A stretch of 39,245 nucleotides of DNA. Source: Nemertoderma westbladi. Its lineage: Eukaryota > Animalia > Xenacoelomorpha. The translations under genes and the position numbers were made by a program. Of the stretch, positions 2,166-39,245 are shown piece by piece; positions within the stretch are counted from its first letter, which is position 1; each line of letters opens with the position of its first letter. Location of the stretch: positions 1 through 39,245 of the forward strand of contig JAUCBJ010003183.1 of assembly GCA_032718475.1 (NCBI GenBank), given 5' to 3'. The notes under the pieces were generated by a model. It searched no databases, was not told the origin of the DNA, and worked only from the letters and a program-made list of their open reading frames with translations.

Positions 2166-4337
<2,172 letters not shown>

Positions 4338-4938: not shown

Positions 4939-5310
4939 TTGAAATTAAACTCTAATGACATTCTATTCAATGTTTTAAATGTTAAATTTTTATTTATTCC
5001 TGTTGGGGCAAATTGCAGTTCGGTTATATTTTAGAGATTTAGTGAATATTTTAGTGAATTTATTTATAATTATTCGGAGGGATATAATGTATTGTCGTTC
5101 ACAATAGGCTACTTATATATTTCACTGTGCTATAATAATTGTTTTCCTAGACATTCTAGCTAGTCCCCGTAGTTTTAGGTCCATATATATTTATTTATTG
5201 TACCAGATATTTTTGGGGTATTTAATGTTACCATTTTCCATTGCTTACCTTTCCCGCAGAATAGTGGCTTTGTATATTTATATATTACGTATATACGGAT
5301 TTAACACGAA

Positions 5311-6467: not shown

Positions 6468-6594
6468 CATTGGTTTCCCTGTCCAATCGAACTGGGAGTC
6501 GTCTCTATAGGCTCGTCTCTCGTAGAGATCCTGAAACAGTTTCCGTATGTAGTCGTAATCCGGTGTCTCAAAGAAATCTAACCTTCTGACATAT
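6468..6594 (-). CDS. CSNK1G: Casein kinase 1 gamma, exon ending the kinase domain
   Basis: Bounded by taccacag| and |gtgggt, 127 nt. Encodes (R)[42 protein letters not shown] and completes the AG|A Arg codon begun in the previous exon across a roughly 19.2-kb intron. Confidence 0.94.
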
Positions 6595-6599
6595 CTGTG

Positions 6600-9500
6600 G
6601 TAAACAAGTGAGGGTGGAGATAGATGTAAACAAGTAGAGGGTGGTGATAGATAAAAAGGTAGAGGGTGGAGTTGGAGTTAGATGTAAACAAGTAGAGGGT
6701 GGAGATAGATGTAAACAAGTAGAGAGAGGAGTTAGATGTAAACAAGTTGAGAGTGTAGTTAGATGCAAACAAGTAGAGGGTGGAGTTGGATGTAAACAAG
6801 TAGAGAGTGGAGATAGATGTAAACAAGTAGAGGGTGGAGTTAGATGTAAACAAGTAGAGGGTGGAGTTAGATGTAAACAAGTAGAGGGTGGAGTTAAATG
6901 TAAACAAGTAGAGGGTGGAGATAGATGTAAACAAGTAGAGAGAGGAGTTAGATGTAAACAAGTTGAGAGTGTAGTTAGATGCAAACAAGTAGAGGGTGGA
7001 GTTAGATGTAAACAAGTAGAGGGTGGAGATAGATGTAAACAAGTAGAGAGAGGAGTTAGATGTAAACAAGTTGAGAGTGTAGTTAGATGCAAACAAGTAG
7101 AGGGTGGAGTTGGATGTAAACAAGTAGAGGGTGGAGTTAGATGTAAACAAGTAGAGGGTGGAGTTAGATGTAAACAAGTAGAGGGTGGAGTTAGATGTAA
7201 ACAAGTAGAGGGTGGAGTTAGATGTAAACAAGTAGAGAGAGGAGTTAGATGTAAACAAGTTGAGAGTGTAGTTAGATGCAAACAAGTAGAGGGTGGAGTT
7301 GGATGTAAACAAGTAGAGGGTGGAGTTAGATGTAAACAAGTAGAGGGTGGAGTTAGATGTAAACAAGTAGAGGGTGGAGTTAGATGTAAACAAGTAGAGG
7401 GTGGAGTTAGATGTAAACAAGTAGAGGGTGGAGATAGATGTAAACAAGTAGAGGGTGGAGTTAGATGTAAACAAGTAGAGAGAGGAGTTAGATGTAAACA
7501 AGTTGAGAGTGTAGTTAGATGCAAACAAGTAGAGGGTGGAGTTGGATGTAAACAAGTAGAGGGTGGAGTTAGATGTAAACAAGTAGAGGGTGGAGTTAGA
7601 TGTAAACAAGTAGAAGGTGGAGTTGGATGTAAACAAGTAGAGAGAGGAGTTAGATGTAAACAAGTTGAGAGTGTAGTTAGATGCAAACAAGTAGAGGGTG
7701 GAGTTGGATGTAAAAAAGTAGAGGGTGGAGTTAGATGTAAACAAGTAGAGGGTGGAGATAGATGTAAACAAGTAGAGGGTGGAGATAGATGTAAACAAGT
7801 AGATGGTGGAGTTAGATGTAAACAAGTAGAGGGTGGAGATAGATGTAAACAAGTAGAGGGTGGAGTTAGATGTAAACAAGTAGAGGGTGGAGATAGATGT
7901 AAACAAGTAGAGGGTGGAGATAGATGTAAACAAGTAGAGGGTGGAGATAGATGTAAACAAGTAGAGGGTGGAGATAGATGTAAACAAGTAGAGGGTGGAG
8001 TTAGATGTAAACAAGTAGAGGGTGGAGATAGATGTAAACAAGTAGAGGGTGGAGATAGATGTAAACAAGTAGAGGGTGGAGATAGATGTAAACAAGTAGA
8101 GGGTGGAGTTAGATGTAAACAAGTAGAGGGTGGAGATAGATGTAAACAAGTAGAGGGTGGAGTTAGATGTAAACAAGTAGAGGGTGGAGATAGATGTAAA
8201 CAAGTAGAGGGTGGAGATAGATGTAAACAAGTAGAGGGTGGAGATAGATGTAAACAAGTAGAGAGTGGAGTTAGATGTAAACAAGTAGAGGGTGGAGATA
8301 GATGTAAACAAGTAGAGGGTGGAGATAGATGTAAACAAGTAGAGGGTGGAGATAGATGTAAACAAGTAGAGGGTGGAGTTAGATGTAAACAAGTGGAGGG
8401 AGGGTGGAGTTAGATGTAAACAAGTGGAGGGTGGAGTTGGATGTAAACAAGTAGAGGGTGGAGATAGATGTAAACAAGTAGAGGGTGGAGTTAGATGTAA
8501 ACAAGTAGAGGGTGGAGTTAGATGTAAACAAGTAGAGGGTGGAGATAGATGTAAACAAGTAGAGGGTGGAGATAGATGTAAACAAGTAGAGGGTGGAGAT
8601 AGATGTAAACAAGTAGAGGGTGGAGATAGATGTAAACAAGTAGAGGGTGGAGATAGATGTAAACAAGTAGAGGGTGGAGTTAGATGTAAACAAGTAGAGG
8701 GTGGAGATAGATGTAAACAAGTAGAGGGTGGAGATAGATGTAAACAAGTAGAGGGTGGAGTTAGATGTAAACAAGTAGAGGGTGGAGATAGATGTAAACA
8801 AGTAGAGGGTGGAGTTGGATGTAAACAAGTAGAGGGTGGAGATAGATGTAAACAAGTAGAGGGTGGAGTTGGATGTAAACAAGTAGAGGGTGGAGATAGA
8901 TGTAAACAAGTAGAGGGTGGAGATAGATGTAAACAAGTAGAGGGTGGAGATAGATGTAAACAAGTAGAGGGTGGAGTTAGATGTAAACAAGTGGAGGGAG
9001 GGTGGAGTTAGATGTAAACAAGTGGAGGGTGGAGTTAGATGTAAACAAGTAGAGGGTGGAGATAGATGTAAACAAGTAGAGGGTGGAGATAGATGTAAAC
9101 AAGTAGAGGGTGGAGATAGATGTAAACAAGTAGAGGGTGGAGATAGATGTAAACAAGTAGAGGGTGGAGTTAGATGTAAACAAGTGGAGGGAGGGTGGAG
9201 TTAGATGTAAACAAGTGGAGGGTGGAGTTGGATGTAAACAAGTAGAGGGTGGAGATAGATGTAAACAAGTAGATGGTGGAGTTAGATGTAAACAAGTAGA
9301 GGGTGGAGTTAAATGTAAACAAGTAGAGGGTGGAGATAGATGTAAACAAGTAGAGAGTGGAGTTAATGGAAACAAGTACAGGGTGGAGTTAGATGTAAAC
9401 AAGTAGAGGGTGGAGTTAGATGTAAACAAATAGAGAGTGGAGTTAGATGTAAACAAGTAGAGGGTGGAGTTAGATGTAAACAAATAGAGAGTGGAGTTAG

Positions 9501-10900
9501 ATGTAAACAAGTAGAGGGTGGAGTTAATGGAAACAAGTACAGGGTGGAGTTAGATGTAAACAAGTAGAGGGTGGAGTTAGATGTAAACAAATAGAGAGTG
9601 GAGTTAGATGTAAACAAGTGGAGGGTGGAGTTAGATGTAAACAAATAGAGAGTGGAGTTAGATGTAAACAAGTAGAGGGTGGAGTTAAATGTAAACAAGT
9701 AGAGAGTGGAGTTAAATGTAAACAAGTAGAGGGTTGAGTTAGATGTAAACAAGTAGAGAGTGGAGTTACATGTAAACAAGTAGAGGGTGGAGTTAAATGT
9801 AAACAAGTAGAGAGTGGAGTTAAATGGAAACAAGTAGAGCGTGGAGTTAGATGTAAACAAGTAGAGAGAGGAGTTAAATGTAAACAAGTAGAGGGTGGAG
9901 TTAGATGGAAACAAGTAGAGGGTGGAGTTAGATGGAAACAAGTAGAGCGTGGAGTTAGATGGAAACAAGTAGAGGGTGGAGTTAAATGTAAACAAGTAGA
10001 GGATGGAGTTAGATGTAAACAAGTAGAGGGTGGAGTTACATGTAAACAAGTAGAGGGTGGAGTTAGATGTAAACAAGTAGAGGGTGGAGATAGATGGAAA
10101 CAAGTAGAGGGTGGAGTTAGATGGAAACAAGTAGAGCGTGGAGTTACATGTAAACAAGTAGAGGGTGGAGTTAGATGTAAACAAGTAGAGGGTGGAGATA
10201 GATGTAAACAAGTAGAGGGTGGAGTTACATGTAAACAAGTAGAGGGTGGAGTTAGATGTAAACAAGTAGAGGGTGGAGATAGATGTAAACAAGTAGAGGG
10301 TGGAGTTAGATGGAAACAAGTAGAGGGTGGAGTTAGATGGAAACAAGTAGAGCGTGGAGTTACATGTAAACAAGTAGAGGGTGGAGTTAGATGTAAACAA
10401 GTAGAGGGTGGAGATAGATGTAAACAAGTAGAGGGTGGAGTTACATGTAAACAAGTAGAGGGTGGAGTTAGATGTAAACAAGTAGAGGGTGGAGATAGAT
10501 GTAAACAAGTAGAGGGTGGAGTTAGATGTAAACAAGTAGAGGGTGGAGATAGATGTAAACAAGTAGAGGGTGGAGTTACATGTAAACAAGTAGAGGGTGG
10601 AGTTACATGTAAACAAGTAGAGGGTGGAGTTAGATGTAAACAAGTAGAGGGTAGAGATAGATGTAAACAAGTAGAGGGTGGAGTTACATATAAACAAGTA
10701 GAGGGTGGAGTTAGATGTAAACAAGTACAGCGTGGAGTTAGATGTAAACAAGTACAGCGTGGAGATAGATGTAAACAAGTAGAGGGTGGAGTTAGATGTA
10801 AACAAGTAGAGGGTGGAGTTAGATGTAAACAAGTAGAGGGTGGAGTTGGATGTAAACAAGTAGAGGGTTGAGTTAGATGTAAACAAGTAGAGAGTGGAGG
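6600..10900. repeat. 27-bp minisatellite (about 160 units) abutting a CK1gamma 3' splice site
   Basis: Plus-strand unit AAGTAGAGGGTGGAG(T/A)TAGATGTAAAC. On the minus strand it ends ...ctccaccctcacttgtttaccacag|exon. Confidence 0.95.
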
Positions 10901-16083: not shown

Positions 16084-16639
16084 GTTTTACATTACGTATC
16101 CGTTGAATAATAAACAGGCTCATATTATTAAATAAAATATTCTAGAATATTCTAGAATAGAGATAAAAACTATTAGAATTATATCGATTTACGTCTCAAA
16201 ATTGACACCTTAGTATTTCGATAATTTCATTGGCATTTTTTGATGAAATTTTAAACGGTTTTCAGATTGAGAATCTACAGATGAAGGCTGTTCTGATAAT
16301 ATCTAGATTAGATTCAAAAGATGAAAAATAAAGTCAACAGAGATGGTTGAATGTTGCTAAAAAGGCGTTTTTAACGGCTTGTTATATCGAAATAGTTCAT
16401 AAATTTAAAAATCCGAAGCAGGCCAGCAGTAAGAAATATTATTTAAATTTGAAAAAAACTTGGGGGGGGGGGGGGGGGATGGGTGGGGCTCCGTCCGACC
16501 CCCTTAATAACTATTTATTTTACAAAAACAAAGTACTATTTTTTTGTCCGATTATTTTATCAGATTTTATATCATAAATACACATTCTACTATTTCATGC
16601 GGATTAAAAAGGGATTAAAAAGCGACTCCTATTAGAATC

Positions 16640-19600
16640 ATTGACGTTGATAATCTTGGAGATACATTGAACTGGGATAGATTCCAGGCAGCCATGGACA
16701 CTGGTGTGGATGCTGCATGTAACTATATAACGGAAGCTATTGCTGCATGTGGAACCACCAGACCCAAACGAAAGTCAAAACAATGGTGTGACAGCAGTTG
16801 CTACAATGCAAAACGAAAACTGCGGAATGCCCTCGAGAGTATGAAACAAAACCCATCATAACCTTCCCGTGAGCAATACCGGGCTCAACAAAAGGACTAC
16901 AAGATTATCTTAACAAATAAGAAAAAAGTTTTCCTTACACAACGTGAACACAGTCTGATTAAGAGATGTGAATCCGAAGACTCAATGTTCTGGAACATAA
17001 CTACCGGACGCCGTAAGCCAACTTGTGGCGCTCAACAGGTCACTGCAGAAGCATGGTCTGACCATTTCTCTGCATTACTAACAGCTGATGAACCACCTAC
17101 TCTCCCCGACCTTCCGGAACAACCAAACGCCGATCTGGATGCACCAATAAAGGACTCTGAAGTAACTGCTTCTGTATACTCTCAAAAGAATAACAAATCC
17201 ACTGGGCCAGACGGTATTTCAAACGAATCCTTGAAATCTGGATTTGGTCACCTATTTCCATGGGTCAATAAGCTTAAAAGTGGCCAAAAAGGGGTACAAA
17301 TTGACCAAAAAATTTTTGTCGGAAATTAGTGCCATACCATACACCATTGGAAAGATAATTTCATGGCGAATCTTGTGATGGTAGAGGGAGAGCATGACGC
17401 GCTGCTCAAAGGGAGATATATGGCAAAAACTAATGTCATATCTGTAACGTTTTTGTCTACCACTGTAACGCATTACAGTGATGACATTTTTGGGACAAAC
17501 GTCTGTAACGGCCATCTGTAACGGTAATTATGTTATGGATTTTGCAGTATTTATAACTTATTGCTTCGACAATAAGGTAATTTATTGGACAAACATCTGT
17601 AACAAACATAGATATCTGCCCATAACCATCGCATCCACTAAATTATATGTACTTAATACACATGATTTCAATAAATATAAAAAGTTTTTCATTAACATTT
17701 TTCTGTGTAACCGATAATCTTGTTTTACACAATTTTTTTTTATCCCGTGTTAAATTTTCTCTATAACGTCGCTTTTTATATGCTTGTTTAAAATACTCTG
17801 GATGACAACCGCGGTCCATTTTTCCTCTGTACTTATTTAACCGCTCCCTGGCGTTTCTCTGCAACTGATTCAGAGACGTCTATTACCACATCCAATAAAC
17901 GGATCTGACTAAACTTATCACAATAATATAAGTAGTGCACAAGTCCGTCATGTAAGTAAGTAAGTGATGTTAAGCCAATGATTTAGAAATTGATAGTAAA
18001 ATATAGGCCTTTTATACGCATTAGAGTATTTAATCATTAGAGTAAATTATAATCTTACATTGAAGTTACACAAGACTCACTGATATCAGTCACTGGATAC
18101 TTTATTTTTGTTTATTTATTGATTCATGTCAGATGAAATTAGACATACAAATTTATTGAAGTCTATCTATACGTCTGTACTGTATAAACAATCTGTTATG
18201 TTTATGAAATGCCAGGTTGAGTAGCACTACGACCACTTATTGAGTGTGATAGTGTCGTATAAAAAAAAAAGTAGTAGTTACAAGCTTGCCAGTAATAAAT
18301 TGTAATAATGTAAATGTAATAAATTACGCGCCTATGCAGGGAAGCCTAGTAACGAAAAACGCAAAACGAAACAGGGCAAAGTACCGTCTGTACAATATAT
18401 TGTATGTTAAAAAAAACACTGTTTGTAGGAAATGTATCGTCTACAATTCTAAACGAAATAAAGCGAAATTCTGCAGAAAGCATATTTTATTAATAGGCCT
18501 ACTTTTAAACTTTATAAGATGGAGATTGTATATATTTGCAATTAATTCCTAAATTATTTACCACGGACCTAGAAGCTCTGGATTCATACAATTTCATATG
18601 TGAAGTGAATCTGCGCTTTACTCCCTAGAATCCACAATCACTTCTTCCCGGATAGAGATAAACATGAATCCGTGTTTTACTCCCCTTACGGGATCCAGTA
18701 ACACTTGAGAATTCAAATTAGATTGAATTCGCATTTTGCACTCATTTCCGGATTTCATGAAAACCCGGATCCGCGTTTTAACCTCAAAATTCGAGAACCG
18801 ATCTGGATCCTGCATCCGGTTCCGGGTTTTACACTTACCCATCTTACACTACCACATTACCATGAGCAGTTAGGATGTCAGTAGGAAGACGAAGAACATA
18901 TCAAACGTGTAAGCATTCAAATATAGACAGTGATGCCTTATTGTATTTCAGGGTGACCCTCCGTTACAGATAGGACTGTCATATATATATGACTGAAAAC
19001 CTACAGTCTGTAACGCATCGATAACTGGTTATATAATGCGTTACAGATGAGACATCCCTTATCTGTAACGCTAACGCACTGCACTGTAACGGTGACGCGT
19101 TACAGATGGTTGACAAAAACGCTTACCACCGCCATACATCAGGTGTTTATTTATCACATTAACTCTTGGGGTTAATGCGGCATAAATTCAAATTGCCTTT
19201 CCACACATACCATTATACTTGTATGAGATTAATATTATCAAAATCTATGGCCACATTTGTAGCGTTACAGATATGGACGTTTATGCTTTCTATATTAAAT
19301 GCTTCCCAAATGAGATGACCTTACCATTTGTATGTGATATTTGGCCTATATATGTTAGAAACCCTGTAGATTCTAAATATATCAAAACTGTAAACCTACA
19401 GTTAATACTTCAGATTCTAGACGTAAAGGTTACAGATGTGACACAAAAATTTAAAAATCCATGCCCATTTTATGTATCGATCTCAAATGGTTCAACATGA
19501 ATATTATGGCCTGAAATATATTGGAAAAGATAGCAAAACATCTAAGCTTCCCAACAATATATAGGTTTCCTATATATTTGCCACTTGGAGTGATAAAATT

Positions 19601-21060
19601 TACAGTTGTTTGTGGTCGTGTCATTTAAGGGACAAGTGATTTTCACGATATTTCAGTCTTAGATGGGGCATATCTTTTGACTGCCTTTACAGATTTTGAT
19701 AATTTTTAGTGCGTAAGCTGCGCAAATAAATTAGCTACAAAATAATATATAACTTTATTAAATACGAATAAATTAAAGCATTTAAAATTATATCGTAACT
19801 TCCGGACAAACCATTGGCCACTTTTAAGCTTATTGACCCCCATACATTTTAACTTTCTTCCTCCTTTGTTTCTCCACTGCATCATGCCCCGCAAGGTGGC
19901 TTATGTCATACCTAATCCCACTCTACAAAGGAAAAGGTTCCAAATCAGCACAGGGTAACTACCGGGGAATAGCATTATTATGATGTTTCTTGAAGACCTA
20001 TTCCACCATATTATATAACAGACTGTACCTTTGGACCGAGTTAACCAACGTAATTCCAGCCTGTCAATATGGATTTCGCCGAGGTCGTTCAACACTAATG
20101 GCGGTCAATCTACTCTATAAACGAATTAAATCTGCCCTTGCACCATCCGGAGGCCACATCTACTGCGTTTTTATGGATTTCACGAAGGTGTTCGACTCGA
20201 TTGACCGTCCCAAATTAGCTCACAAACTATCAACAATCGGGGTCAGCAAACACTTCATATCAGTTATCTGGGCGATTATAGCCACCAATTACATATGTAT
20301 TTGCTTTGGCATCTTTATCTCAGAACCAATCACCCAAACTATAGGCCTCGCCCAAGGTGATAAATTATCACCGTTACTGTTCAGCTTATTCATCTACGAC
20401 TTGCCGCCTATCCTGGTAGCGATTGGTTGCTGGGTTATAATGTACGCAGATGATGTTGCTATCACCGCAAACACAATCGAAGATATGCAGGTTGCTCTCG
20501 ATGCTCTATCAGTATACTGTGATTCCAATAACCTAAATGTAAATACATCCAAAACAAAGGCGATGAAGTTCCGTCGCGGTGGTCATCTGGCGAGATCTGA
20601 CCAGTTGCATTATAAGGGATCCAAAATAGAGTTTGTCAACACATTTAATTACCTTGGTGTCACGCTCACTACAAAAAACCTATCAAGTGGCCATTTCAAA
20701 GCAAAATACAAAAAAGGTATAGCCTGCTGCATGATGCTATCGACAAAAGTGAAACTAACCTGCACCAACGCTATCAGCCGCTAGGAAGCTCTGGGCTGCT
20801 ATAATTATCCCTGCTATTACATATGGGTGCAGCGTGTTTACATCAGACCCCTTGGAAGAACTCGACCACGTCGCTAAAGTAAGGGCGTTCTATACTGGAA
20901 ACTGTGGTGTGGGGTGTCGAAATTTTCCTCCTCTACAGCCATTCTAAGCGCAGTTGACCGCGCAACGACCTCTGGTTGTAATGAGATCAACATTAACAAC
21001 CTAACGGGTCACCGCCGTCGCGCCGCTGCACTCTTTCTATCTAATGGTTTCCATCACAAT
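16640..21060 (+). mobile_element. Decayed LINE (APE-class RT, L2/RTEX-like; clade unresolved) split by a DNA transposon at 17262-19839
   Basis: KSTGPDGISNE lies before the insertion; IPLYKGKG..NYRGIAL, QYGFRRGRST, FMDFTKVFDSI, QGDKLSPLLF, YADD and YLGV lie after it. Stops and frameshifts are present; outer boundaries are approximate. Confidence 0.85.
17262..19839. mobile_element. Non-autonomous TIR DNA transposon, copy 1 (Sola2-like by termini and TSD)
   Basis: TIR GGGTCAATAAGCTTAAAAGTGGCCAA ... TTGGCCACTTTTAAGCTTATTGACCC; 4-bp TSD CCAT; many internal TCTGTAAC/GTTACAGA motifs; no transposase ORF. Confidence 0.88.
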
Positions 21061-21419
21061 TAATTTTTAATTAAATATAAATCCTTTTATCCGGTTATGT
21101 GCCTTTTTTTCTTTTTTTATCTAATACTAATACAATACATCGTTCTCTACTTTTACTGTAAGTGCAACTAAAATTATATTCTTTAATTCTTCGTAATTTT
21201 TCCTTGTGGAAAATATACGCCCCATTTGATTCACATTCTACTATTTCATGCGGATTAAAAAGGACAAAAAAAGGATTTTTTTTGTAAAAGATGTTGTTTT
21301 CTTTTAAAAAATCCCTTTTTCTCCGCAAAAATAAGGACAAAAACAACTTTTTGCCCAAAATCAACCCACATTGAGAATATACTAATAGTAATTATTAATT
21401 ATGAATATAATAATATAAT

Positions 21420-22020
21420 AATATCCCGAGTCGCCTCACGAACGTAGTCGTGGTTGGCAAGAAGCCGCCAAACGCCGAGAATATGAGCGGCGTAAATGTC
21501 GCCAACTCAACTTCACGAATCCGCACGTCGTAAAGATAACGCTTGCGGGCCTCGTGATGGAGGTGGGCGTCGGCGAGAGGCATTGCAGCATTCGTGGGGG
21601 CTAGGGGGTTAAAGATGGAGACATCCAGGAATATCTTCTGATACCTTGAACCCCAGAAACCGCAGACGGACACATCGAGGCGGGCTTGGTCGTTGGTTGA
21701 AGTGGAACGTCGGATGGACTGCTCACCGGTGACTGGCTGCAAATGAGGTTCGACCCCGACGTTATGCGCTACTTCGGCTAGTGTGGTGGCGAAGAAATCG
21801 CGGACTTCATTGTGGCGAATAGACGGATAGCCGCCTGTAGGACACGAAATAGCGTGATTTACTGAAAATCGTGTCCCACAGACGCATCGGGCCGGAAGAA
21901 CTCTTGGTCGACAAGAAGTCTCGGTGTTGTGGATCGTCACCGGGCGAGAGTTTAGCCAGGACGAAGCGCCCTTCTCGGATGTCAGCTCCCGTAGGTGTTG
22001 TTGGTCCCGATTGAGTCCTG
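21420..22020 (-). mobile_element. Fragment of an RLE-type (CRE-like) non-LTR retrotransposon C-terminus
   Basis: EKGASSWL, a zinc knuckle CVCG...HAISC, RHNEVRD and restriction-like endonuclease motifs ARLDV...LDVSI. It is a GC-rich island with an apparent internal deletion. Confidence 0.72.
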
Positions 22021-23587
22021 AATAAACTTATACGTGGAACTGAACTGAACTGAACCTTAAACTTATAAGGTTAGTAGCCTCTTTTTGCAGTTCCGCTGTT
22101 TCTTTTACGATACCCCCCTTATTAAATGGCGCACATAGAATTGCTATATTGCTCCTCTAGGTCGGTCGGATGGACATTAGTCAATTGTGCTAATTTTATT
22201 ATTATTTATATTATATTGCAAATTATAAGAAATTCTAAGATTGTAAGAAAAAAATAGCTAATAATGTTATATTTATTAAGTAGAATAAAATAACCTCGCG
22301 CAGATGCAAAACCATGCAACTTTTGAACACTCATATCTCAGCTATTTTTCAACGAAAACCAGATTATATTACATATTTGGAATCCATACATGGCCAGCTT
22401 TCCCAGCTATCACAACAACAAGGTTGACGAATAAATGCAGTGTAACTGATGAAATACCGACGAAGCCACCTATTTCAAACGCTTGTAGCTAAAGAATGAA
22501 AGCGAAAATAAAAATTATGGCTCACCCAGTCAGTGGTCGGGAGGTGAAACTATCTCTGTTTCAAATGTCATGCAATCTCATTAAGATTTGTAGAAAAATT
22601 TGGGGGGTGGGGGGTAATATACCTGAATAACGACGACACTATATTCCAAGACGTGGTGTATGTAGTATTAGTTTAGTTCTTATAGAGGTATTCAAGGAAC
22701 AAATTTAGGTTTAAGTTTCCCGCCAATTTTAATTAAATTTGTAAGATTTTCAGTCTAAATGCTAACCTCCGTAATTAAAAAAAACTTGTATTTTTATTCT
22801 CAGTCAATGGTTTAGGGGGCATCCATAAAGGACCACTCCATTAGAATTTCAATCAGTTTTGTTAAAGAAATAACTGATCAGTAGCATTTTGAGTGGCACA
22901 TTTTTTCATTTCTATATTTAAACCTTTCCGCGCAAAAATTATCGGTCTCCCTCTTACTGTCCGAAGTAATAATTATAATAGTAAATTATTCGTTATAAAG
23001 GAAGCGCACAGCTGCAATTTTTGCTACGGGAGATCCATTACCTGCGGTCGGTAAATTCATTTCTGATATTAGTTTTCAAAATCAGTTTGGCCAAATCTAG
23101 TATGACTAATCTGGGTGTCCGTTTGTCTGTTGGTTGTCCGTCAAAATATAATAAAACGTCATTGCTAAAATTGTCGCTATGAGGTTTTTCCTGGTCGGTG
23201 ATTTCATTTCCGATGTCAGTTTTGATGTTTGGTGATAGGAATGTCCCGGAATTCCGTTCCGGCCGGAATTCCGGCGGTTTTTGCCCGATTCCGGTTCCGG
23301 CCGGAATTGCCGGAATGGGGTCAATTCCGGCCGGAATTTTACCGGAATTACCAGGTTCAAATCTAGTTTGATAGTTGCAATTAGTTTGTTAAATTATTAT
23401 CAACATTTATATATTTTTTAAACATTATTACCAATTAGTTTAAGATAATTTTCAACACTTGTAAAAAAGTATAGAAATGAAGTTTTCTTCGACCGTTAGA
23501 GCTAACATTTACGGATGCAAGGCATAGATGCCCCATGGGTAGCCCCTTCAAGCTTCAAACCATTCGTGCTAAATCGAAAACGGCATT

Positions 23588-24239: not shown

Positions 24240-25789
24240 TAGCGGGTGGTTTTTCCAATTTAATTATTACAATTTGCTTATAAAATGACGTTATTAGATT
24301 GATTTTACATTGAATTTAAATTATTTTACATTGATTTTATATTATTTTACTTTGAATTGAATATTAAATAATATGATATTATTATGATTGGTATTGTCAT
24401 TGTCCAACGTATCATATAGGATGACCCCTAAAGATTTACAGCTTATTTCAATGGGGGTCCTTTATGTTACTTGGTTACAAATACAATATTACACAATTAC
24501 AATTACTACTCTAACTTAACTAATATAAAACGTTATTACAATACGTACAGGTCCTGCGAGTTGTCGTTAGTTCAGTTCTGCGTCGTAGGTGCTGCATAAT
24601 ATAGTAGTTTTATTTCTATTTACAGCAAAGCCTTTTCTTATCATAAATCGATTTATTCCCAGCAATAATTAAACTGTAACATGTACTATTTATTGGCCTC
24701 GTTTATTGTTTTGGTTTGAATAACATGTCACAGTAACATGCATCTTTCCATTAAAGACACCAGGATATTGCACCAAAGGACCTATAATGACGCGAAACCC
24801 GAGGTTTTTGGTTAACGTAGGTTTTTCGGTATGAGTCTAAAGGCTAAAAACCTAACTTTTGGCCAAAGATATAGATTTTAGAATAAAATTATATTGAATT
24901 CCCGGTCGTTCAATGCCGAAGTACCATCCCGTCCCCATAAACGGCCATAACGGCCCAGGCCATTCTCCACTCCACCCACCTTAATTCCCCCCAAGGTTCT
25001 GATTCCTCTCATTATCAAACTTAGCTGTAGAAATTAAAAAAAAAACATCTGTTTCACAAAAAATTATAAAGTTTCATGGGTCATTTAGTGTATTTCACTA
25101 ATTATAGAAAATTCCGGTTCCGGCCGGAATTCCGGCCGGAATATTCCGGCATGTTGAATTCCGGTTCCGGTTCCGGCCGGAATCAAAATATCGATTCCGG
25201 GACATCCCTATTTGGTGATGTCTTGTCTGTCTATCTGTCAGTCTGTCTGTCTGTCGGTCGGCCAAACGGAAATACTTCACGAAATACTGTTATTTGAGTC
25301 CTACAGAAACGTAAAATTTTGTTTCAGTTCGCAGCACTAGTTGTTTACGTTTATTCCTGTACCGTGTATTGCACCTGCTAGCATAACAGAACTGAGCTGC
25401 TATACACCTGCACTTCATACTCAGTCAGCAACAGTCAGCAACAGTCAGCAACTAACACATTCGTGGGGCGTCGCACAGCACGCGAACTTGAGCAAATTCG
25501 AAAGCAGTTCGATTTGTTCTGGAGTCAAAAGTTCGAGAGGTATTTTCCCGTAACTTAAAAAATAATGGAACTTTATCTCTAATATGCCCATACAAAATTT
25601 GGTTGAAAATGGTTAAATCTTAAAAAGTTATTTACGAATGAATATTTCATTACAGACGGACAGACGGACATGAAATTTTGCCCTATTTACTAATTATAAT
25701 TGTGCACTAAGGCTCGCCCTGACTGCCTGGCTCGCCGCACAGGGTTTATAATAAATAGATCTTGAATTTTTGCGGTATAAAATACGCAC

Positions 25790-25896
25790 CTTAGATACAT
25801 TGCGAACTCCTCTGGTTGGGTCTCGCACAATGACTCAATGGGTGTGGCTCGCTTCGTATCCCCTATTTTCTGGTATCGTTCTTTTAATGTGTCGGC
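25790..25896 (-). CDS. CSNK1G: Casein kinase 1 gamma, internal exon
   Basis: Bounded by cattatag| and |gtgcgt, 107 nt. Encodes [35 protein letters not shown](R) and ends in phase 2. Confidence 0.95.
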
Positions 25897-26069
25897 CTAT
25901 AATGAATAATAATATAGAATAGACGCTGTGAATAATATTTGTGTAGAGTGTTGCGCCGTGTAGTAAAGTAGGCTGTATGTCCAACACCAACCCACTAACA
26001 AGGAAAACTGTTTGAACCATATTTATAAATAAATTACATTTAAACGTAACAAATATAATAATAGTGTAA

Positions 26070-28849
26070 ATAAACACTTACCGTTATACCTTGCCATGAT
26101 ATACACTTACCGTTATACATTGCCATGATAAACACTTACCGTTATACCTTGCCATGATAAACACTTACCGTTATACCTTGCCATGATAAACACTTACCGT
26201 TATACCTTGCCATGATATACACTTACCGTTATACCTTGCCATGATAAACACTTACCGTTATACCTTGCCATGATAAACACTTACCGTTATACCTTGTCAT
26301 GATAAACACTTACCGTTATACATTGCCATGATAAACACTTACCGTTATGCATTGCCATGATAAACACTTACCGTTATGCATTGCCATGATATACACTTAC
26401 CGTTATACCTTGCCATGATATACACTTACCGTTATGCATTGCCATGATAAACACTTACCGTTATACCTTGCCATGATATACACTTACCGTTATGCATTGC
26501 CATGATAAACACTTAATGTTATGCATTGCCATGATATACACTTACCGTTATACCTTGCCATGATATACACTTACCGTTATGCATTGCTATGACATACACT
26601 TACCGTTATACCTTGCCATGATATACACTTACCGTTATGCATTGCCATGATATACACTTACCGTTATGCATTGCCATGATATACACTTACCGTTATACCT
26701 TGCCATGATATACACTTACCGTTATACCTTGCCATGATATACACTTACCGTTATACCTTGCCATGATAAACACTTACCGTTATACCTTGCCATGATAAAC
26801 ACTTACCGTTATACCTTGTCATGATAAACACTTACCGTTATACATTGCCATGATAAACACTTACCGTTATGCATTGCCATGATAAACACTTACCGTTATG
26901 CATTGCCATGATATACACTTACCGTTATACCTTGCCATGATATACACTTACCGTTATGCATTGCCATGATAAACACTTACCGTTATACCTTGCCATGATA
27001 TACACTTACCGTTATGCATTGCCATGATAAACACTTAATGTTATGCATTGCCATGATATACACTTACCGTTATACCTTGCCATGATATACACTTACCGTT
27101 ATGCATTGCTATGACATACACTTACCGTTATACCTTGCCATGATATACACTTACCGTTATGCATTGCTATGACATACACTTACCGTTATGCATTGCCATG
27201 ATATACACTTACCGTTATACCTTGCTATACCATGATATACACTAACCGTTATGCATTGCCATGATATACACTTACCGTTATACCTTGCCATGATAAACAC
27301 TTACCGTTATGCATTGCCATGATAAACACTTACCGTTATGCATTGCCATGATATACACTTACCGTTATACCTTGCCATGATATACACTTACCGTTATGCA
27401 TTGCCATGATAAACACTTACCGTTATACCTTGCCATGATATACACTTACCGTTATACCTTGCCATGATATACACTTACCGTTATACCTTGCCATGATATA
27501 CACTTACCGTTATGCATTGCCATGATATACACTTACCGTTATACCTTGCCATGATATACACTTACCGTTATGCATTGCCATGATATACACTTACCGTTAT
27601 GCATTGCCATGATATACACTTACCGTTATACCTTGCTATGCCATGATAAACACTAACCGTTATGCATTGCCATGATATACACTTACCGTTATACCTTGCC
27701 ATGATATACACTTACCGTTATGAATTGCCATGATAAACACTTACCGTTATACCTTGCCATGATATACACTTACCGTTATACCTTGCCATGATATACACTT
27801 ACCGTTATACCTTGCCATGATATACACTTACCGTTATACCTTGCCATGATATACACTTACCGTTATGCATTGCCATGATATACACTTACCGTTATACCTT
27901 GCCATGATATACACTTACCGTTATGCATTGCCATGATATACACTTACCGTTATGCATTGCCATGATATACACTTACCGTTATACCTTGCCATGATATACA
28001 CTTACCGTTATACCTTGCCATGATATACACTTACCGTTATGCATTGCCATGATATACACTTACCGTTATACCTTGCCATGATATACACTTACCGTTATAC
28101 CTTGCCATGATATACACTTACCGTTATGCATTGCCATGATATACACTTACCGTTATACCTTGCCATGCCATGATATACACTAACCGTTATGCATTGCCAT
28201 GATATACACTTACCGTTATACCTTGCCATGATAAACACTTAGCGTTATACCTTGCCATGATATACACTTACCGTTATGCATTGCCATGATATACACTTAC
28301 CGTTATACCTTGCCATGATAAACACTTACCGTTATGCATTGCCATGATATACACTTACCGTTATACCTTGCCATGATATACACTTACCGTTATGCATTGC
28401 CATGATAAACACTTACCGTTATACCTTGCCATGATATACACTTACCGTTATGCATTGCCATGATATACACTTACCGTTATACCTTGCCATGATATACACT
28501 TACCGTTATGCATTGCCATGATATACACTTACCGTTATACCTTGCCATGATAAACACTTACCGTTATACCTTGCCATGATATACACTTACCGTTATACCT
28601 TGCCATGATATACACTTACCGTTATGCATTGCCATGATATACACTTACCGTTATACCTTGCCATGATATACACTTACCGTTATACCTTGCCATGATATAC
28701 ACTTACCGTTATGCATTGCCATGATATACACTTACCGTTATACCTTGCCATGATATACACTTACCGTTATGCATTGCCATGATATACACTTACCGTTATA
28801 CCTTGCCATGATATACACTTACCGTTATACCTTGCCATGATATACACTT
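26070..28849. repeat. 29-bp minisatellite, distal sub-array (about 96 units), derived from the exon/5' splice-site junction
   Basis: Minus-strand unit GT(T/A)TATCATGGCAA(GGT/TGC)ATAACGGTAAGT; the GTT/GGT form differs from the proximal unit at only 3 positions. Confidence 0.95.
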
Positions 28850-31413
28850 GGGTCAATAAGCTTAAAAGTGACCAAAAAGGGGTACAAATTGACCGAAAAT
28901 TTTTTGTCGGAAATTAGTGCCATACCATACACCATTCGAAAGATAATTTCATGGCGAATCTTGTGATGGTAGAGGGAGAGCATGACGCGCTGCTCAAAGG
29001 GAGATATATGGCAAAAACTAATGTCATATCTGTAACGTTTTTGTCTACCACTGTAACGCATTACAGTGATGACATTTATGGGACAAACGTCTGTAACGGC
29101 CATCTGTAACGGTAATTATGTTATATGGATTTTGCAGTATTTATAACTTATTGCTTCGACAATAAGGTAATTTATTGGACAAACATCTGTAACAAACATA
29201 GATATCTGCCCATAACCATGGCATCCACTAAATTATATGTACTTAATACACATGATTTCAATAAATATTTAAAAAGTTTTTCATTAACATTTTTCTGTGT
29301 AACCGATAATCTTGTTTTACACGATTTTTTTTATCCCGTGTTAAATTTTCTCTATCGCGCCGCTTTTTATTAGCTTGTTTAAAATACTCTGTATAACAAC
29401 CGCGGTCTTTTTTCTCTGTACTTATTCAACCGCTCCCTGGCGTTTCTCTGCAACTGATTCAGAGACGTCCATTACCTCATCCAATAAACGGATCTGACTA
29501 AACTTATTACAATAATATAAGTAGTGCACAAGTCCGTTAAGTGATGTTAAGCCAATGATTTAGAAATTGATAGTAAAATATAGGCCTTTTACGCATTAGA
29601 GTATTTAATCATTAGAGTAAATTATAATCTTACATTGAAGTTACACAAGACTCACTGATATCAGTCACTGGATACTTTATTTTTGTTTATTTATTGATTC
29701 ATGTCAGATGAAATTAGACATACAAATTTATTGAAGTCTATCTATACGTCTGTACTGTATAAACAATCTGTTATGTTTATGAAATGCCAGGTTGAGTAGC
29801 ACTACGACCACTTATTGAGTGTGATAGTGTCGTATAAAAAAAAAAGTAGTAGTTACAAGCTTGCCAGTAATAAATTGTAATAATGTAAATGTAATAAATT
29901 ACGCGCCTATGCAGGGAAGCCTAGTAACGAAAAACGCAAAACGAAACAGGGCAAAGTACCGTCTGTACAATATATTGTATGTTAAAAAAAACACTGTTTG
30001 TAAGAAATGTATCTTCTACAATTCTAAACGAAATAAAGCGAAATTTTGCAGAAACCACATTTTATTAATACTTTTAAAATTTATAGGATGGAGATTGTAT
30101 ATATTTGCAATTAATTCCTAAATTATTTACCACGGACCCAGAAGCTCTGGATTCATACAATTTCATGTGAAGTGAATCTGCGCTTTACTCCCCAGAATCC
30201 ACAATCACCTCTTCCCGGATAGAGATAAACATGAATCCGTGTTTTACTCCCCTTACGGGATGCAGTAACACTTGACAATAAAAATTAGCTAGAATTCTCA
30301 TTTTGCACTCATTTCCGGATTTCATGAAAACCCGGATCCGCGTTTTAACCTCAAAATTCGAGAACCGATCCGGATCCTGCATCCGGTTCCGGGTTTTACA
30401 CTTACCCATCTTACACTACCACATTGCCATGAGCAGTTAGGATGTCAGTAGGAAAACGAAGAACGTATCAAACGCGTAGGCATTCAAATATTGTCAGTGA
30501 TGCCTTATTGTATTTCAGGATGACACTCCGTTACAGATAGGACTATCATATAGATATGACTGAAAACCTACAGTCTGTAACGCATCGATAACTGGTTATA
30601 TATTGCGTTACAGATGAGACATGCCCTATCTGTAACGCACTGCACTGTAACGGTGACGCGTTACAGATGGTTGACAAAAACGCTTACCACCGCCATACAT
30701 CATAGGTGTTTATTTATCACATTAACTCTTGGGGTTAATGCGGCATAAATTAAAATTGCCTTTACACACGTACCGTTATACTTGTATGAGATTAATATTA
30801 TCAAAATATATGGCCACATTTGTAGCGTTACAGATATGGACGTTTATGCTTTCTATATTGACTTTGTTAAACATAAATGCTTCCCAAATGAGATTGCCTT
30901 GTCCTTTGTATGTGATATTTGGCCTATATATGTTAGAAACCCTGTAGATTCTAAATATATCAAAACTGAAAACCTACAGTTACTACTTCAGATTCTATAC
31001 GTAAATGTTACAGATGTGACACAAAAATTGAAAAATCCAGGCCCAATTTATGTATCGATCTCAAATGGTTCAACATGAATATTATGGCCTGAAATATATT
31101 GGAAAAGATAGCAAAACATCTAAGCTCCCCAACAATAGGTTTTCTATATATTTGCCACTTGGAGTGATACAATTTACAGTTGTTTGTGGTCGTGTCATAT
31201 AAGGGACAACTGATTTTCACGATATTTCAGTCTTTGATGGGGCATATCTTTTGACTGCCTTAACAGATTTTCATAATTTTTAGTGCGTAAGCTGCGCAAA
31301 TAAATTAGCTACAAAATAATATATAACTTTATTAAATACGAATAAATTAAAGCATTGAAAATTATATCGTAACTTCCGGACAAACCATTGGCCACTTTTA
31401 AGCTTATTGACCC
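28850..31413. mobile_element. Non-autonomous TIR DNA transposon, copy 2 (same family and orientation)
   Basis: Same TIRs; 4-bp TSD ACTT; colinear with copy 1 with scattered substitutions and small indels; inserted in the 29-bp satellite. Confidence 0.88.
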
Positions 31414-32626
31414 ACTTACCGTTATACCTTGCCATGATAAACACTAACTTTAGACGTTGCCATGGTAAACACTTAACTTTAGACCTTGCCATGGTAAACA
31501 CTTACCTTTAGACCTTGCCATGGTAAACATTTAACTTTAGACCTTGCCATGGTAAACACTTAACTTTAGACCATGCCATGGTAAACACTTACCTTTAGAC
31601 CTTGCCATGGTAAACTCTTATCTTAAGACCTTGCCATGGTAAACATTTAACTTTAGACCTTGCCATGGTAAACTCTTATCTTAAGACCTTGCCATGGTAA
31701 ACATTTAATTTTAGACCTTGCCATGGTAAACTCTTATCTAAAGACCTTTGCCATGGTAAACACTTAACTTTAGACCTTGCCATGGTAAACTCTTATCTTA
31801 GACCTTGCCATGGTAAACTCTTATCTTAAGACCTTGCCATGGTAAACAAAACACTTACCTTTAGACCTTGCCATGGTAAACATTTAACTTTAGACCTTGC
31901 CATGGTAAACACTTAACTTTAGACCTTGCCATGGTAAGCACTTACCTTTAGACCTTGCCATGGTAAACTCTTATCTTAAGACCTTGCCATGGTAAACATT
32001 TAACTTTAGACCTTGCCATGGTAAACTCTTATCTTAAGACCTTGCCATGGTAAACATTTAACTTTAGACCTTGCCATGGTAAACTCTTATCTTAAGACCT
32101 TGCCATGGTAAACACTTAACTTTAGACCTTGCCATGGTAAACTCTTATCTTAAGACCTTGCCATGGTAAACTCTTATCATAAGACCTTGCCATGGTATAC
32201 AAAACACCTACCTTTAGACCTTGCCATGGTAAACACTGACCTTTATTGCTATGGTAAACAAACACTTACCTTTAGACCTTGCCATGGTAAACTCTTATCT
32301 TAAGACCTTGCCATGGTAAACTCTTATCTTAAGACCTTGCCATGGTAAACAAAACACTTACCTTTAGACCTTGCCATGGTAAACAAAACACTTACCTTTA
32401 GACCTTGCCATGGTAAACAAAACACTTACCTTTAGAGCTTGCCATGGTAAACACTTAAGTTTAGACCTTGCCATGGTAAACTCTTATCTTAAGACCTTGC
32501 CATGGTAAACACTTACCTTTAGACCTTGCCATGGTAAACATATACCTTTAAACCTTGTCATGGTAAACACTTACCTTTATTGCCATGGTAAACAAACACT
32601 TACCTTTAGACCTTGCCAGGGTAAAC
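31414..32626. repeat. 29-bp minisatellite, proximal sub-array (about 40 units), continuous with the CK1gamma exon end
   Basis: Minus-strand unit GTTTACCATGGCAAGGTCTAAAG-GTAAGT versus the real junction GTTTACCCTGGCAAGGTCTAAAG|gtaagt. Confidence 0.95.
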
Positions 32627-32689
32627 TTCCCCGAAGGAAATACAGCAGCATGTGTCCCAAGGCTTCTAAGTCGTCCCTCCGACTTTGTT
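32604..32689 (-). CDS. CSNK1G: Casein kinase 1 gamma, internal exon
   Basis: Bounded by ccttttag| and |gtaagt, 86 nt. Encodes (E)[28 protein letters not shown] and is phase-compatible with the exons on both sides. Confidence 0.96.
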
Positions 32690-33360
32690 CTAAAAGGAAA
32701 AAAAGCCAGTCGCGATAAACAGCAGTTTGGCAACATTGAACTGCACGAAAGGGTCAAAAGGTCATGGTGGTCGATTGCGTTAACTTCGAAAAAATGCTGT
32801 TCAAATAACTAACATCATAACTATTAATATACTCATATTACCAACAATTAGAATTAGGATAGTGTGTTAGGTTGATTTTATAATCAATATAGTGGGGTTG
32901 GGGGGTTGGGGGGTTGGGGGGGGGGGGGGGACACCTTGAAAACAAGTTTAAACTATACACTAGCTGGCGGTGCTTGCGCACCGTGAAAGAAGCTCTCTAG
33001 CTTCAGACGACTGGTCATGTACAGTACAGCAGTACAATTTTAATACTGAAACTTGTTATAGTGGTTAGACCTGTCTCATCCTCAGATCCTCCAGAATGGC
33101 TGTTAGCAGTACCGGACCTGGTGGTAGATATTGACGATCCGTACCGGCTCGAAGATGCCGCGATGTTTTCGGAGCTACTGACGCAGAAATCTTAGGATAT
33201 CTATCTGAAAGCGTGGGCAGCATTAATAGCCTTTAGCCTCATTAATAGCATTAATCGTCGTAAACAATGATAACGCTGGTGGTATTATTTTCAAATAAAA
33301 CAATATATTCGATATAAAAACGTAACGGAAATCACTATTTTGCACTCATTTTCTTAAGCA

Positions 33361-36328: not shown

Positions 36329-36563
36329 CTTTTCCTAAGTGTGTGTTAATACTCATATATCTTGCAGTTCCTGTTAAGCTTTTGTGTTCTCTGTAAGGTA
36401 TGTGTTTCCCCGTCTCACTGTCAATATACTCTTTCGCCAAACCAAAATCGATTATATGTATTAGGTTTTCAGTTTTCGTTGTTTGTCTGCCAATTAGGAA
36501 ATTTTCAGGTTTAATATCCCGGTATATAAGGTGTTTAGAGTGGACACATTCTAGTCGAGAAAT
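36329..36563 (-). CDS. CSNK1G: Casein kinase 1 gamma, catalytic-loop/activation-segment exon
   Basis: Bounded by ttttag| and |gttagt, 235 nt. Encodes [25 protein letters not shown]...[12 protein letters not shown]...[25 protein letters not shown]. Starts in phase 0 and ends in phase 1. Confidence 0.96.
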
Positions 36564-37613: not shown

Positions 37614-37762
37614 TAGCTGAACTGCTAGCATTAGCACCGTCTTTAAAGTGAATTGCCGATCGCAGAGATCGAATAAATCTTCGAGACTTGGTCCCAACAG
37701 TTCCAGCACCATCGCGTTGTATTTACCACAAGGTCCAAAGTAATACACCTGGGGTATACCCT
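37614..37762 (-). CDS. CSNK1G: Casein kinase 1 gamma, internal exon (first visible)
   Basis: Bounded by tacag| and |gttagt. Encodes (E)[49 protein letters not shown], with the CK1 LGPSLEDLF motif and the gamma-type [12 protein letters not shown]. Ends in phase 0. Confidence 0.95.
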
Positions 37763-38580
37763 CTGTAATTCAAGTGGAATAAGTTAACTGATAATTATTT
37801 TTCTATGGTTGAATTACAATAAATAAAATATACGCACATAAGTTTGGGGGACTTTCCCCATCACATTCAACCGCTCCCTAATGGAACAAAATAAGCGCAC
37901 GTAGCCTCCATCCCTATTGCTATTACCATATCGTATAGGCAGGAATTATTCTTAATTAGAAAAAATAACTGTTCTCTGGTTAAAATAGAGTAAAAAAAGC
38001 GCCCATGTGAAGAATACCAGGATTTCACTTTTCGGTCGACTTTTTATTGGAATTTTATATATGAAGATTTTTATTTTTTTTAATTTATCTTCTTTAAGTG
38101 TTTTATAGCGCTTATTTCTGTCTTATAACCTGTACATATACTAATTCGTTTATTGTTTTGGTTAGATTCAGACCTTCTGTAACATGTGTTTTTGGTGAAA
38201 ACCTGGTATTCTTCACATGGGGGTAACTGCAAAGTGAAATATAACGGCAGAAAGTCAGGTATTCTTCACATGGGCCAAAAAAAGATTTAATCAGGGACCA
38301 TAAAACTGCCCGGAGAATCCAGATATCTGTGACAAGTCTCAGTTTCAACTCTTGTGATTTACAAATTTCCATACCTGGGACAATGGCACAGATTCACGAC
38401 AGTTAAAATAACGATTTTATTTAAAATTGAATTGAAATACTTCAACAACGTCAGGCTAAGGATGTGGTGGCCCCCAAATCCATTATAGAATGCCTCAATC
38501 TTTAGGGAATAACAGCTTCGCCGTATTTTCTTAAAACTGTCATGTTAACATAACTTTTTATGTCGGGTTTGTCAGAACTA

Positions 38581-39245
38581 CACTGAAAAAACGAAGTTGT
38601 ACTTTTTTCATAAAAAAGTGCCGATTTTCCAAAAAAGTGCATCTGGTTTTGAGTACTCAAACGAGATACGCTTTTTTGAAAAACCGGCACTTTTTCAAGT
38701 AGCAAAAAGAGTCACTTTTTATTACAATATAAAAATGGCACTTTTTCAAGGAGCAGAAAAGAGCACTTTTAATTACTCTAAAAAGTGGTACTTTTTTGAT
38801 AATGTTAGTACTGATTTTCTGTTTAGAAAACGACACTTTTCTGAATATTATTTACGTTTTTATATTCATTAGTAGGAAAAAAGCTCATCTTTTTTTTATG
38901 TAATATGTACTTTACTTGTGGGATAATCATTTAAAACATGCACTTTTTAGATTAAGCAGCACTTATTAAAATATAAAGTGGTACTTTATTTCCAATTAAA
39001 GTGCTACTACTTTCTATTTAAAAATGCCACTCCCCGTATATTTAAGACGCATTTATATTTCTTAGTATGTGAAAAAGAGGTACTTTTATTTGTAATAGGT
39101 ACTTTATTTGTACGATTAATCATTTAAAACATGCACTTTTTAGATTAAGCAGCACTTATTAAAATATAAAGTGCTACTTGATTTCCAATTAAAGTGCTAC
39201 TTTCTATTTAAAAATACCACTCCCCGCTATATTTAAGATCAATTT
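38581..39245. repeat. AT-rich repeat element running off the window, with a tandem duplication of about 193 bp
   Basis: Begins CACTGAAAAAA (CMC/EnSpm-like terminus, unconfirmed). AATCATTTAAAACATGCACTTTTTAGATTAAGCAGCAC occurs at 38925 and 39118; AAGTG/CACTT motifs are frequent. Confidence 0.5.

What the first reader, a model, noticed from the sequence alone, without database searches (positions are those of the whole stretch)
26070..32626. An intron filled by tandem amplification of its own exon end plus 5' splice site
Seen: the 29-bp unit is the last 23 nt of the CK1gamma exon (coding ..LPWQGLK) plus GTAAGT, and the real junction is the first unit of the array. About 135 units plus one transposon make up nearly the whole 6.7-kb intron (25897-32603). 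Almost all of the roughly 96 distal units keep ACG|GTAAGT, a strong U1-type donor. Inference: the pre-mRNA carries on the order of 100 decoy donors, which could act as a U1 sink, a source of alternative or recursive splicing, or a neutral product of a splice-junction-focused repeat-generating process. I cannot verify whether this class of repeat is already described in this lineage.
Basis: partly seen in the sequence, partly recalled or inferred. Interest (0 to 1): 0.85.

Follow-up and report, generated by a model that had tools for sequence, protein, structure and literature searches.

The report
Splice-donor "mirage" repeat in kinase intron
In an animal's casein kinase 1 gamma gene, the end of one exon and its splice signal are repeated about 135 more times in the next intron, yet the one assembled transcript uses only the first signal, so this is likely a harmless, large example of a repeat type already known from lancelets, chickens and a few human genes.

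Summary
The 6,707-nt intron (32603-25897, minus strand) of a CK1-gamma gene holds 136 units of about 29 bp (23 nt of exon end plus GTAAGT), split by a 2,564-bp DNA transposon. Only 173 nt are unique. There are 100 extra perfect GTAAGT donors in the units. One public run that behaves as RNA joins the first donor to the next exon and gives no contig on the array units laid. Short-read depth (23-25x against 37x predicted) argues against an assembly artefact or a high-copy dispersed satellite. The class is published: lancelet "mirages", the human F7 intron-7 repeat, chicken "exon stuttering". No support for recursive splicing, and none for selection to keep the decoys (distal mutations fall at random). 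One lead: 25 of 40 exon-side copies have lost their GT against 3 of 95 distal copies, but conservative tests are equivocal (p 0.008 to 0.13). A second array abuts the next acceptor without spanning it. The scan noted many such arrays on other pieces of this genome (not checked here), so the interest lies in the genome-wide pattern, not this locus. New member of a known kind.

The parts
32604..32689 (-). CK1-gamma coding exon ([29 protein letters not shown]); its last 23 nt are the source of the repeat and it carries the donor in use (+1 at 32603, AAG|GTAAGT)
   Evidence: spliced contig of run X1; exon-specific 30-mer unique in window
31414..32626 (-). Exon-side array block, 41 units (25-34 bp) including the real junction; 10 extra AAG|GTAAGT, 1 ACG|GTAAGT, 4 weak GT, 25 without GT
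28850..31413 (.). Non-autonomous DNA transposon, terminal inverted repeats of about 26 bp (GGG...CCC), 4-bp target duplication ACTT (28846-28849 and 31414-31417), longest stop-free frame 109 aa, 94.9% identical to a second copy at 17262-19839
26070..28849 (-). Distal array block, 95 units of a diverged type; 89 keep ACG|GTAAGT; contains a repeated block of 14 unit types 522 bp apart
25897..26069 (-). Unique AT-rich intron tail (173 nt) with the acceptor; likely the remnant of the short ancestral intron
   Evidence: origin inferred
25790..25896 (-). Next CK1-gamma exon ([35 protein letters not shown])
36329..36563 (-). Upstream CK1-gamma exon (catalytic loop, DFG)
37614..37762 (-). Upstream CK1-gamma exon
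6600..10899 (-). Second array, 27-bp unit x about 159, made of branch-point-like and pyrimidine-rich intron end; stops 5 nt before the exon, no AG in 4,316 nt upstream of the acceptor; does not span the junction
6468..6594 (-). CK1-gamma exon after the 19.2-kb intron ([15 protein letters not shown]...DWTGKPM)

Best explanation
This is a minisatellite made of the gene's own exon end and splice donor; the one assembled transcript splices at the first copy, and the other copies are likely tolerated passengers with no function. Inferred history: a short intron (about 185 nt) began GTAAGT-GTTT, and the exon has GTTT 29 nt upstream; slippage between these two 4-nt matches made the first duplicate (the 33-34-bp units use a second GTTT). 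Slippage and unequal exchange then expanded it, a variant type (ACG|GTAAGT) spread through the distal part, and a transposon inserted next to the border of the two types. Only the 5'-most copy is attached to a full exon and its acceptor, so exon definition or 5'-to-3' first-site selection picks it (inferred from human F7, not tested here). Any use of a later donor would include a stop codon at 32579 and would probably be destroyed by nonsense-mediated decay.
For: Spliced contig of run X1 (1,664 nt, depth 166) joins 37614-37763, 36329-36563, the 32604 exon, 25790-25898 and the 6594 exon; its loose end carries the exon-specific CCAGGG, unique in the window. Only 1 X1 record lay on 25735-26145 and none on the array units there; X1 depth in bin 32545-32768 (64.6) equals exon-only cover (64.59). 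Exon-side consensus 22/23 identical to exon end. GTTT match at both ends of the unit is read directly from the sequence. Distal mutations fall at random with respect to the donor (4 of 12, p 0.54) and a 14-unit block is repeated (shuffles: mean 4.7, max 9 of 300). Stop at 32579 lies before the first extra donor at 32574. Same behaviour published for F7 and lancelet genes.
Against: The exon-side block has lost GT in 25 of 40 copies through two separate +1 changes that both spread (13 and 12 copies), and 11 of 18 distinct changes hit the 9-nt donor (p 0.008), which strict neutrality does not predict. RNA evidence is one run of assembled contigs, labelled 'DNA?' by the tool, and only about 2.5 units at each end of the array were laid; rare or decayed isoforms would be missed. 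A second array at a splice site of the same gene hints at a bias (P about 0.11 after leaving out the selected array).
Confidence: 0.72

Rival explanations
1. Same origin, but weak selection shapes the array: decoy donors close to the exon steal some splicing, so donor-dead variants spread in the exon-side block while distal copies, too far from the acceptor to compete, drift. Compatible with the best explanation on origin.
For: GT lost in 25 of 40 exon-side against 3 of 95 distal copies; 11 of 18 distinct exon-side changes in the donor (p 0.008; 0.009 and 0.019 when the commonest three-change variant is merged or dropped). In F7, perfect-consensus pseudo-sites did compete (PMC1557585 passage), and the copies here are near-perfect.
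Against: The pattern was noticed before it was tested; units are not independent, so the unit-level Fisher p is meaningless. Several donor changes arose on copies already dead; counting only changes on live donors gives 6 of 11-12 (p 0.09-0.13); exon-side against distal distinct changes p 0.26. Perfect donors persist at 29, 87, 174, 208 and 242 nt from the real one.
Confidence: 0.25
2. A mutational process targeted at splice junctions (for example transcription- or spliceosome-coupled breaks and repair) seeds these arrays in this lineage, as opposed to arrays arising anywhere and surviving only when they grow into introns.
For: 2 of 4 minisatellites in the window end at a verified splice site (P 0.009 for 2 or more of 8 ends). 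Earlier notes report many such arrays in this genome (unchecked).
Against: The window was selected for one of them; without it P is about 0.11. Two arrays (4463-4936, 14480-14844) are not at a verified junction. The notes are selected by readers and are no unbiased sample. No genome was available.
Confidence: 0.2
3. The decoys are functional: they bind U1 snRNP to shield the long intron from premature cleavage at the transposon's poly(A) signals, or act as a U1 sink or a tunable route to decay.
For: 100 extra perfect donors with predicted U1 pairing (-11.2 to -12.5 kcal/mol) stronger than the gene's four other donors (-3.6 to -9.5); 8 sense AATAAA in the transposon.
Against: No purifying selection on distal donors. 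Most intact donors lie downstream of the transposon, while the block upstream of it is the one that lost them. About 100 sites on a few nascent transcripts are negligible against the cellular U1 pool (general knowledge, not measured here).
Confidence: 0.06
4. The intron is removed stepwise by recursive splicing through AG|GT sites in the units.
For: Most units contain AAG|GT.
Against: These AGs are AAG in purine-rich context with no pyrimidine tract; YAG|GT occurs only 3 times in the intron, none with a tract.
Confidence: 0.02
5. Assembly artefact, or a dispersed satellite that landed at the junction.
For: No short-read contig covers 26053-26069, so the distal edge is not bridged; the DNA runs may be the source of the assembly.
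Against: An exact 43-mer expected at 36.8 copies has 23x (X3) and 25x (X4) local single-copy depth, and a 57-mer expected at 2.0 has 1.5x. One X4 contig runs from exon into the first units with 0 differences. The units carry a nested mutation history, a transposon with target duplication and 22/23 identity to this exon.
Confidence: 0.02

Closest known systems
Lancelet 'mirage' minisatellites (Adh3, globins BflGb6/BflGb9, troponin C, PGBD5). PMC3087553 and PMC3902484: passages seen. The original Adh3 paper (Canestro et al. 2002, PMC117041) was seen only as a citation.
   Same: Tandem unit spans the exon-intron boundary, many but not all copies keep the splice signal, unit size within the reported 10-160 bp, normal splicing persists, homogenisation within the cluster.
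   Different: 136 units against 2-7 in the globin and PGBD5 cases seen; split by a transposon into two repeat types; host is not a lancelet (neighbouring Scm protein only 43% identical to Branchiostoma).
Human F7 intron 7 37-bp VNTR, with IFI6 (6-16), CBS intron 13, LMNB2 and PDGF minisatellites. PMC1557585: abstract, introduction and passages seen.
   Same: First monomer spans the donor; identical pseudo-donors follow; the most upstream site is used.
   Different: 5-25 copies there. Here the unit is mostly exon (23 of 29 nt) and the donor is near-perfect, the condition under which F7 pseudo-sites began to compete. IFI6 and CBS use the next two copies; no such use seen here.
Exon stuttering on chicken dot chromosomes. 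PMC12954441: abstract, results section on repeat expansion and discussion read.
   Same: Local expansion of an exon edge with its splice site into the neighbouring intron, alongside purely intronic expansions in the same genes (like the 27-bp array here).
   Different: 1-44 copies (median 4) and tied to GC-rich sequence there; here 136 copies at 37-38% GC in an invertebrate-type genome.
Microhomology-mediated tandem duplication. PMC13167724: abstract and opening paragraphs seen.
   Same: Single-copy segment flanked by a short match (GTTT here) duplicates and then expands; mostly neutral.
   Different: General mechanism, not specific to splice sites; a 4-nt match is weak evidence alone.

Membership tests
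Mirage / F7-type splice-junction minisatellite | Tandem unit spans an exon-intron boundary | tested here: met
   23 nt exon end + GTAAGT; junction verified by spliced contig
Mirage / F7-type splice-junction minisatellite | Local origin from the adjacent exon, not a dispersed family | tested here: met
   22/23 identity to the exon; no 16-mer elsewhere in the window; read depth no higher than this locus predicts. A genome-wide search was not possible.
Mirage / F7-type splice-junction minisatellite | Copies reiterate the splice signal, many but not all intact | tested here: met
   100 of 135 extra copies keep GTAAGT; 28 lack GT
Mirage / F7-type splice-junction minisatellite | Main mRNA is spliced at the authentic site | tested here: met
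   One spliced contig in one run uses the first donor; rare forms not visible
Mirage / F7-type splice-junction minisatellite | Length polymorphism or somatic instability | tested here: inconclusive
   Depth 23-25x against 36.8 predicted could be a shorter allele or depth bias
Chicken exon stuttering | GC-rich, dot-chromosome setting | tested here: not met
   Array 37.5-37.8% GC; not a bird
Recursive splice sites | Pyrimidine tract + YAG immediately followed by a donor (definition recalled) | tested here: not met
Mirage (second array, 6600-10899) | Unit spans the intron-exon boundary | tested here: not met
   Unit has no AG and stops 5 nt before the exon; it is an intron-end expansion
Sola2-type DNA transposon (insert) | Transposase homology, beyond GRG ends and 4-bp target duplication (traits recalled) | not tested
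   Ends and duplication seen; no long reading frame

The most novel reading that the evidence does not exclude
This lineage has a genome-wide process that amplifies splice junctions far beyond any published case, and the arrays carry a readable selection footprint: decoy donors are purged within about 1 kb of the exon and ignored beyond, giving a natural ruler for how far 5' splice-site competition reaches in vivo.
Probability: 0.15. Interest if true: 0.65.

Novelty: new member of a known kind. Interest (0 to 1): 0.3.

Why it matters
As a single locus it is a large example of a known oddity. It does show that a conserved kinase gene tolerates 100 near-perfect downstream donors, three times the largest copy number in the papers I read (44). 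That makes it a natural test of first-site selection against strength-based or downstream-preferring models of 5' splice-site choice. If the scan's other notes on this genome hold, the genome as a whole is the finding: an AT-rich invertebrate in which such arrays drive intron growth, which would separate the process from the GC-rich setting proposed for chickens. Practically, such arrays mislead gene predictors and break short-read assemblies.

Tried and rejected
No whole genome is held, so the genome-wide enrichment test could not be run. The run search listed no holder on record as RNA; X1 was taken as RNA only because it shows exon-to-exon joints with intron ends and no cover of unique intron stretches. 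X8 laid 0 records. No contig covers 26053-26069, which proves nothing. AG avoidance in the 27-bp array: 0 of 21 distinct changes create an AG, where 7 of 81 possible changes would (about 1.8 expected), not significant; the unit simply lacks AG. Summed array depth (about 100-170x) was not used as copy number because overlapping contigs over-count; exact-match contigs were used instead. The lineage was not established: the Scm protein is 40-50% identical to all animals and sits on a long, unsupported branch (quick tree, 43 rows: the window protein and 42 of 120 hits). A guess at Xenacoelomorpha was searched in the literature (listing only) and showed nothing on such arrays. Paper searches found no report of an invertebrate with arrays of 100 or more splice donors; the library lacks most subscription papers and no supplements were read. 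A look-alike search of earlier findings with this unit found nothing, nor did the search near this window.
Full report
Observation. Tandem Repeats Finder gives two 29-bp arrays, 26070-28849 (95.3 copies) and 31413-32626 (41.0 copies). Read on the minus strand they follow an exon at 32689-32604 whose 28 translated residues match CK1-gamma and Gilgamesh best among solved structures (E 6e-13); two other exons agree (E 6e-40 and 1.5e-17). Five exons (149, 235, 86, 107, 127 nt) give 234 codons with no stop. The intron 32603-25897 is 6,707 nt: 3,970 nt of repeat, 2,564 nt of transposon and 173 nt of unique tail.

Unit anatomy. Parsing gives 41 exon-side units, counting the real junction, and 95 distal units. 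In register the unit is 23 exon-like bases plus GTAAGT. The exon-side consensus matches the exon end at 22 of 23 positions (a synonymous CCC/CCA difference that marks the real exon); the two main distal types match at 18 and 16. Donors: of 40 extra exon-side copies, 10 keep AAG|GTAAGT, 1 has ACG|GTAAGT, 4 have a weak GT and 25 have no GT. Of 95 distal copies, 89 have ACG|GTAAGT, 3 GTTAGT and 3 no GT. That is 100 extra perfect hexamers, plus one in the transposon (101 in all). Predicted pairing with the recalled U1 5' end is -12.5 kcal/mol for the real donor and -11.2 for the distal type, stronger than the gene's four other donors.

Transposon. 28850-31413 has terminal inverted repeats (27 nt at 96% as extended by the tool), a 4-bp target duplication ACTT and no frame longer than 109 codons. 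A second copy lies at 17262-19839 (94.9% identical, duplication CCAT). It inserted directly after a GTAAGT, one unit inside the distal type, so that type existed before the insertion.

Is it real DNA? No genome is held. Four public runs hold the neighbouring gene almost fully; the tool flags all four as possible sources of the window, so they are not fully independent. One X4 contig spans 32545-32893 with no differences, bridging exon and first units. An exact 43-nt array contig has 23x (X3) and 25x (X4) the local single-copy depth where the assembly predicts 36.8; a 57-nt contig has 1.5x where 2.0 is predicted. This fits one locus of about this size, and neither a collapsed artefact nor a satellite with thousands of copies. 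X3 differs from the window by one exonic base and 21 deleted intron bases, so it probably shows another haplotype. The distal edge (26053-26069) is not covered by any contig.

Which donor is used? Run X1 is labelled 'DNA?' but behaves as RNA: one 1,664-nt contig (depth 166) skips 36328-32690 and 37613-36564 at intron ends. On 25735-26145 it is the only X1 record; it covers the exon at 25790-25898 and its loose ends are 32606-32635 and 6565-6594, each unique in the window. So the first donor is joined to 25896. X1 depth in the bin that includes units 2-3 equals exon-only cover (64.6 against 64.59). Limits: one run, contigs only, and only the ends of the array were laid. Any extension to a later donor passes a TAA at 32579, before the first extra donor at 32574, so such forms would probably be degraded and under-seen.

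How it likely arose. The exon has GTTT 23 nt before the junction and the intron has GTTT right after GTAAGT, 29 nt apart; the 33-34-bp units carry an extra GTTT(T). The last unit runs GTAAGTGTTT into the unique tail. This reads as microhomology-mediated duplication of the junction of a roughly 185-nt intron (inferred; general mechanism in PMC13167724, abstract seen). A run of 14 unit types is repeated 522 bp apart in the distal block (shuffles: mean 4.7, maximum 9 of 300), as expected from block duplication.

Is there selection? In the distal block 4 of 12 distinct substitutions fall in the 9-nt donor (31% expected, p 0.54): the decoys are not protected. In the exon-side block (38 units tested; the real unit and the two next to the transposon left out) 11 of 18 do (p 0.008), and two separate +1 changes spread to 13 and 12 copies. 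But the pattern was seen before it was tested, several changes sit on copies already dead, changes on live donors alone give p 0.09-0.13, the two blocks do not differ significantly by distinct changes (p 0.26), and perfect donors survive at 29-242 nt from the real one. It is a lead, not a result.

Functional readings. Recursive splicing lacks its motif: the units' AG|GT are AAG in purine-rich context, and YAG|GT occurs 3 times in the intron with no pyrimidine tract. A U1 sink is implausible for one gene by general knowledge of U1 abundance and has no conservation signal. Shielding of the transposon's 8 sense AATAAA is poorly placed, since most intact donors lie downstream of it.

Second array. 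The next intron (25789-6595, 19,195 nt) ends in about 159 copies of a 27-bp unit with CTAAC and a pyrimidine run; it stops 5 nt before the exon and there is no AG for 4,316 nt upstream of the acceptor. It does not span the junction, so it is an intron-end expansion, not a mirage. AG avoidance among its variants is not significant (0 of 21, about 1.8 expected). Two of four minisatellites in the window end at a verified splice site (P 0.009; about 0.11 without the selected one).

Known kinds. [quoted passage not shown] Human F7 intron 7 and four other genes have donor-spanning repeats of 5-25 copies, with first-site selection shown by mutagenesis for F7 (PMC1557585). Chicken exon stuttering covers 236 introns with 1-44 copies in GC-rich regions (PMC12954441). 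This array meets four of five mirage features tested; length instability is inconclusive. It differs in size, low GC and the transposon split. Eight paper searches found no invertebrate case of this size, within an open-access library. The lineage is unresolved.

Context from the scan. Of 79 notes on this genome, 62 matched the words 'splice tandem'; those shown describe donor or acceptor arrays of up to about 2,100 copies with the authentic site in use. They are unchecked AI notes on selected windows and I did not test them. They suggest this locus is a modest example of a genome-wide habit.

Verdict. Observation confirmed; interpretation partly supported; new member of a known kind; interest 0.3. 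The open questions worth money are genome-wide: enrichment at junctions and a distance gradient of donor loss.

Noticed in passing
window 6600-10899: 27-bp array (about 159 copies) built from the branch-point-like and pyrimidine-rich end of a CK1-gamma intron; 77 CTAAC motifs and a 4,316-nt AG-free zone before the acceptor.
   Followed up: partly
window 2184-4337 (+): Intronless Scm/SCMH1-like Polycomb gene (zf-FCS, 2 MBT, SLED, SAM). It may be nested antisense in a CK1-gamma intron if the candidate exon near 854-804 (VVQQPGNTTTAQYQQNT) is real; not checked in RNA.
   Followed up: partly
window 5249-5267 (-): Candidate 19-nt micro-exon (AAG|CCACTATTCTGCGGGAAAG|GTAAGC) downstream of the 6468 donor; unverified.
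   Followed up: no
window 4463-4936: 36-bp minisatellite (13 copies) 126 nt after the Scm stop codon; contains TTACAG|G on the minus strand; no exon linked to it.
   Followed up: partly
window 14480-14844: 71-bp tandem repeat, 5 copies at 99%, in mid-intron, not at a known junction.
   Followed up: no
window 11840-13993 (-) and 16619-20784 (+): Two LINE-type reverse transcriptase fragments (RVT_1); the second is interrupted by the other copy of the DNA transposon (17262-19839). A further retroelement-like frame at 21398-22027 had no Pfam match.
   Followed up: partly
window 28990 (-): Candidate acceptor inside the transposon end, about 170 nt upstream of the first distal donors; could form a cryptic exon. 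No RNA evidence.
   Followed up: no
window 30395-30432: The transposon carries a stretch resembling the distal unit (CATGGCAATG ... GGTAAGTGT with a longer spacer); probably chance.
   Followed up: no
window 25758-25804: Run X3 shows 21 deleted intron bases and one exonic change (reads as synonymous TTC to TTT) against the window: allelic variation next to the exon.
   Followed up: no
window 38892-39238: 193-bp near-tandem duplication and shorter AT-rich repeats at the window end.
   Followed up: no
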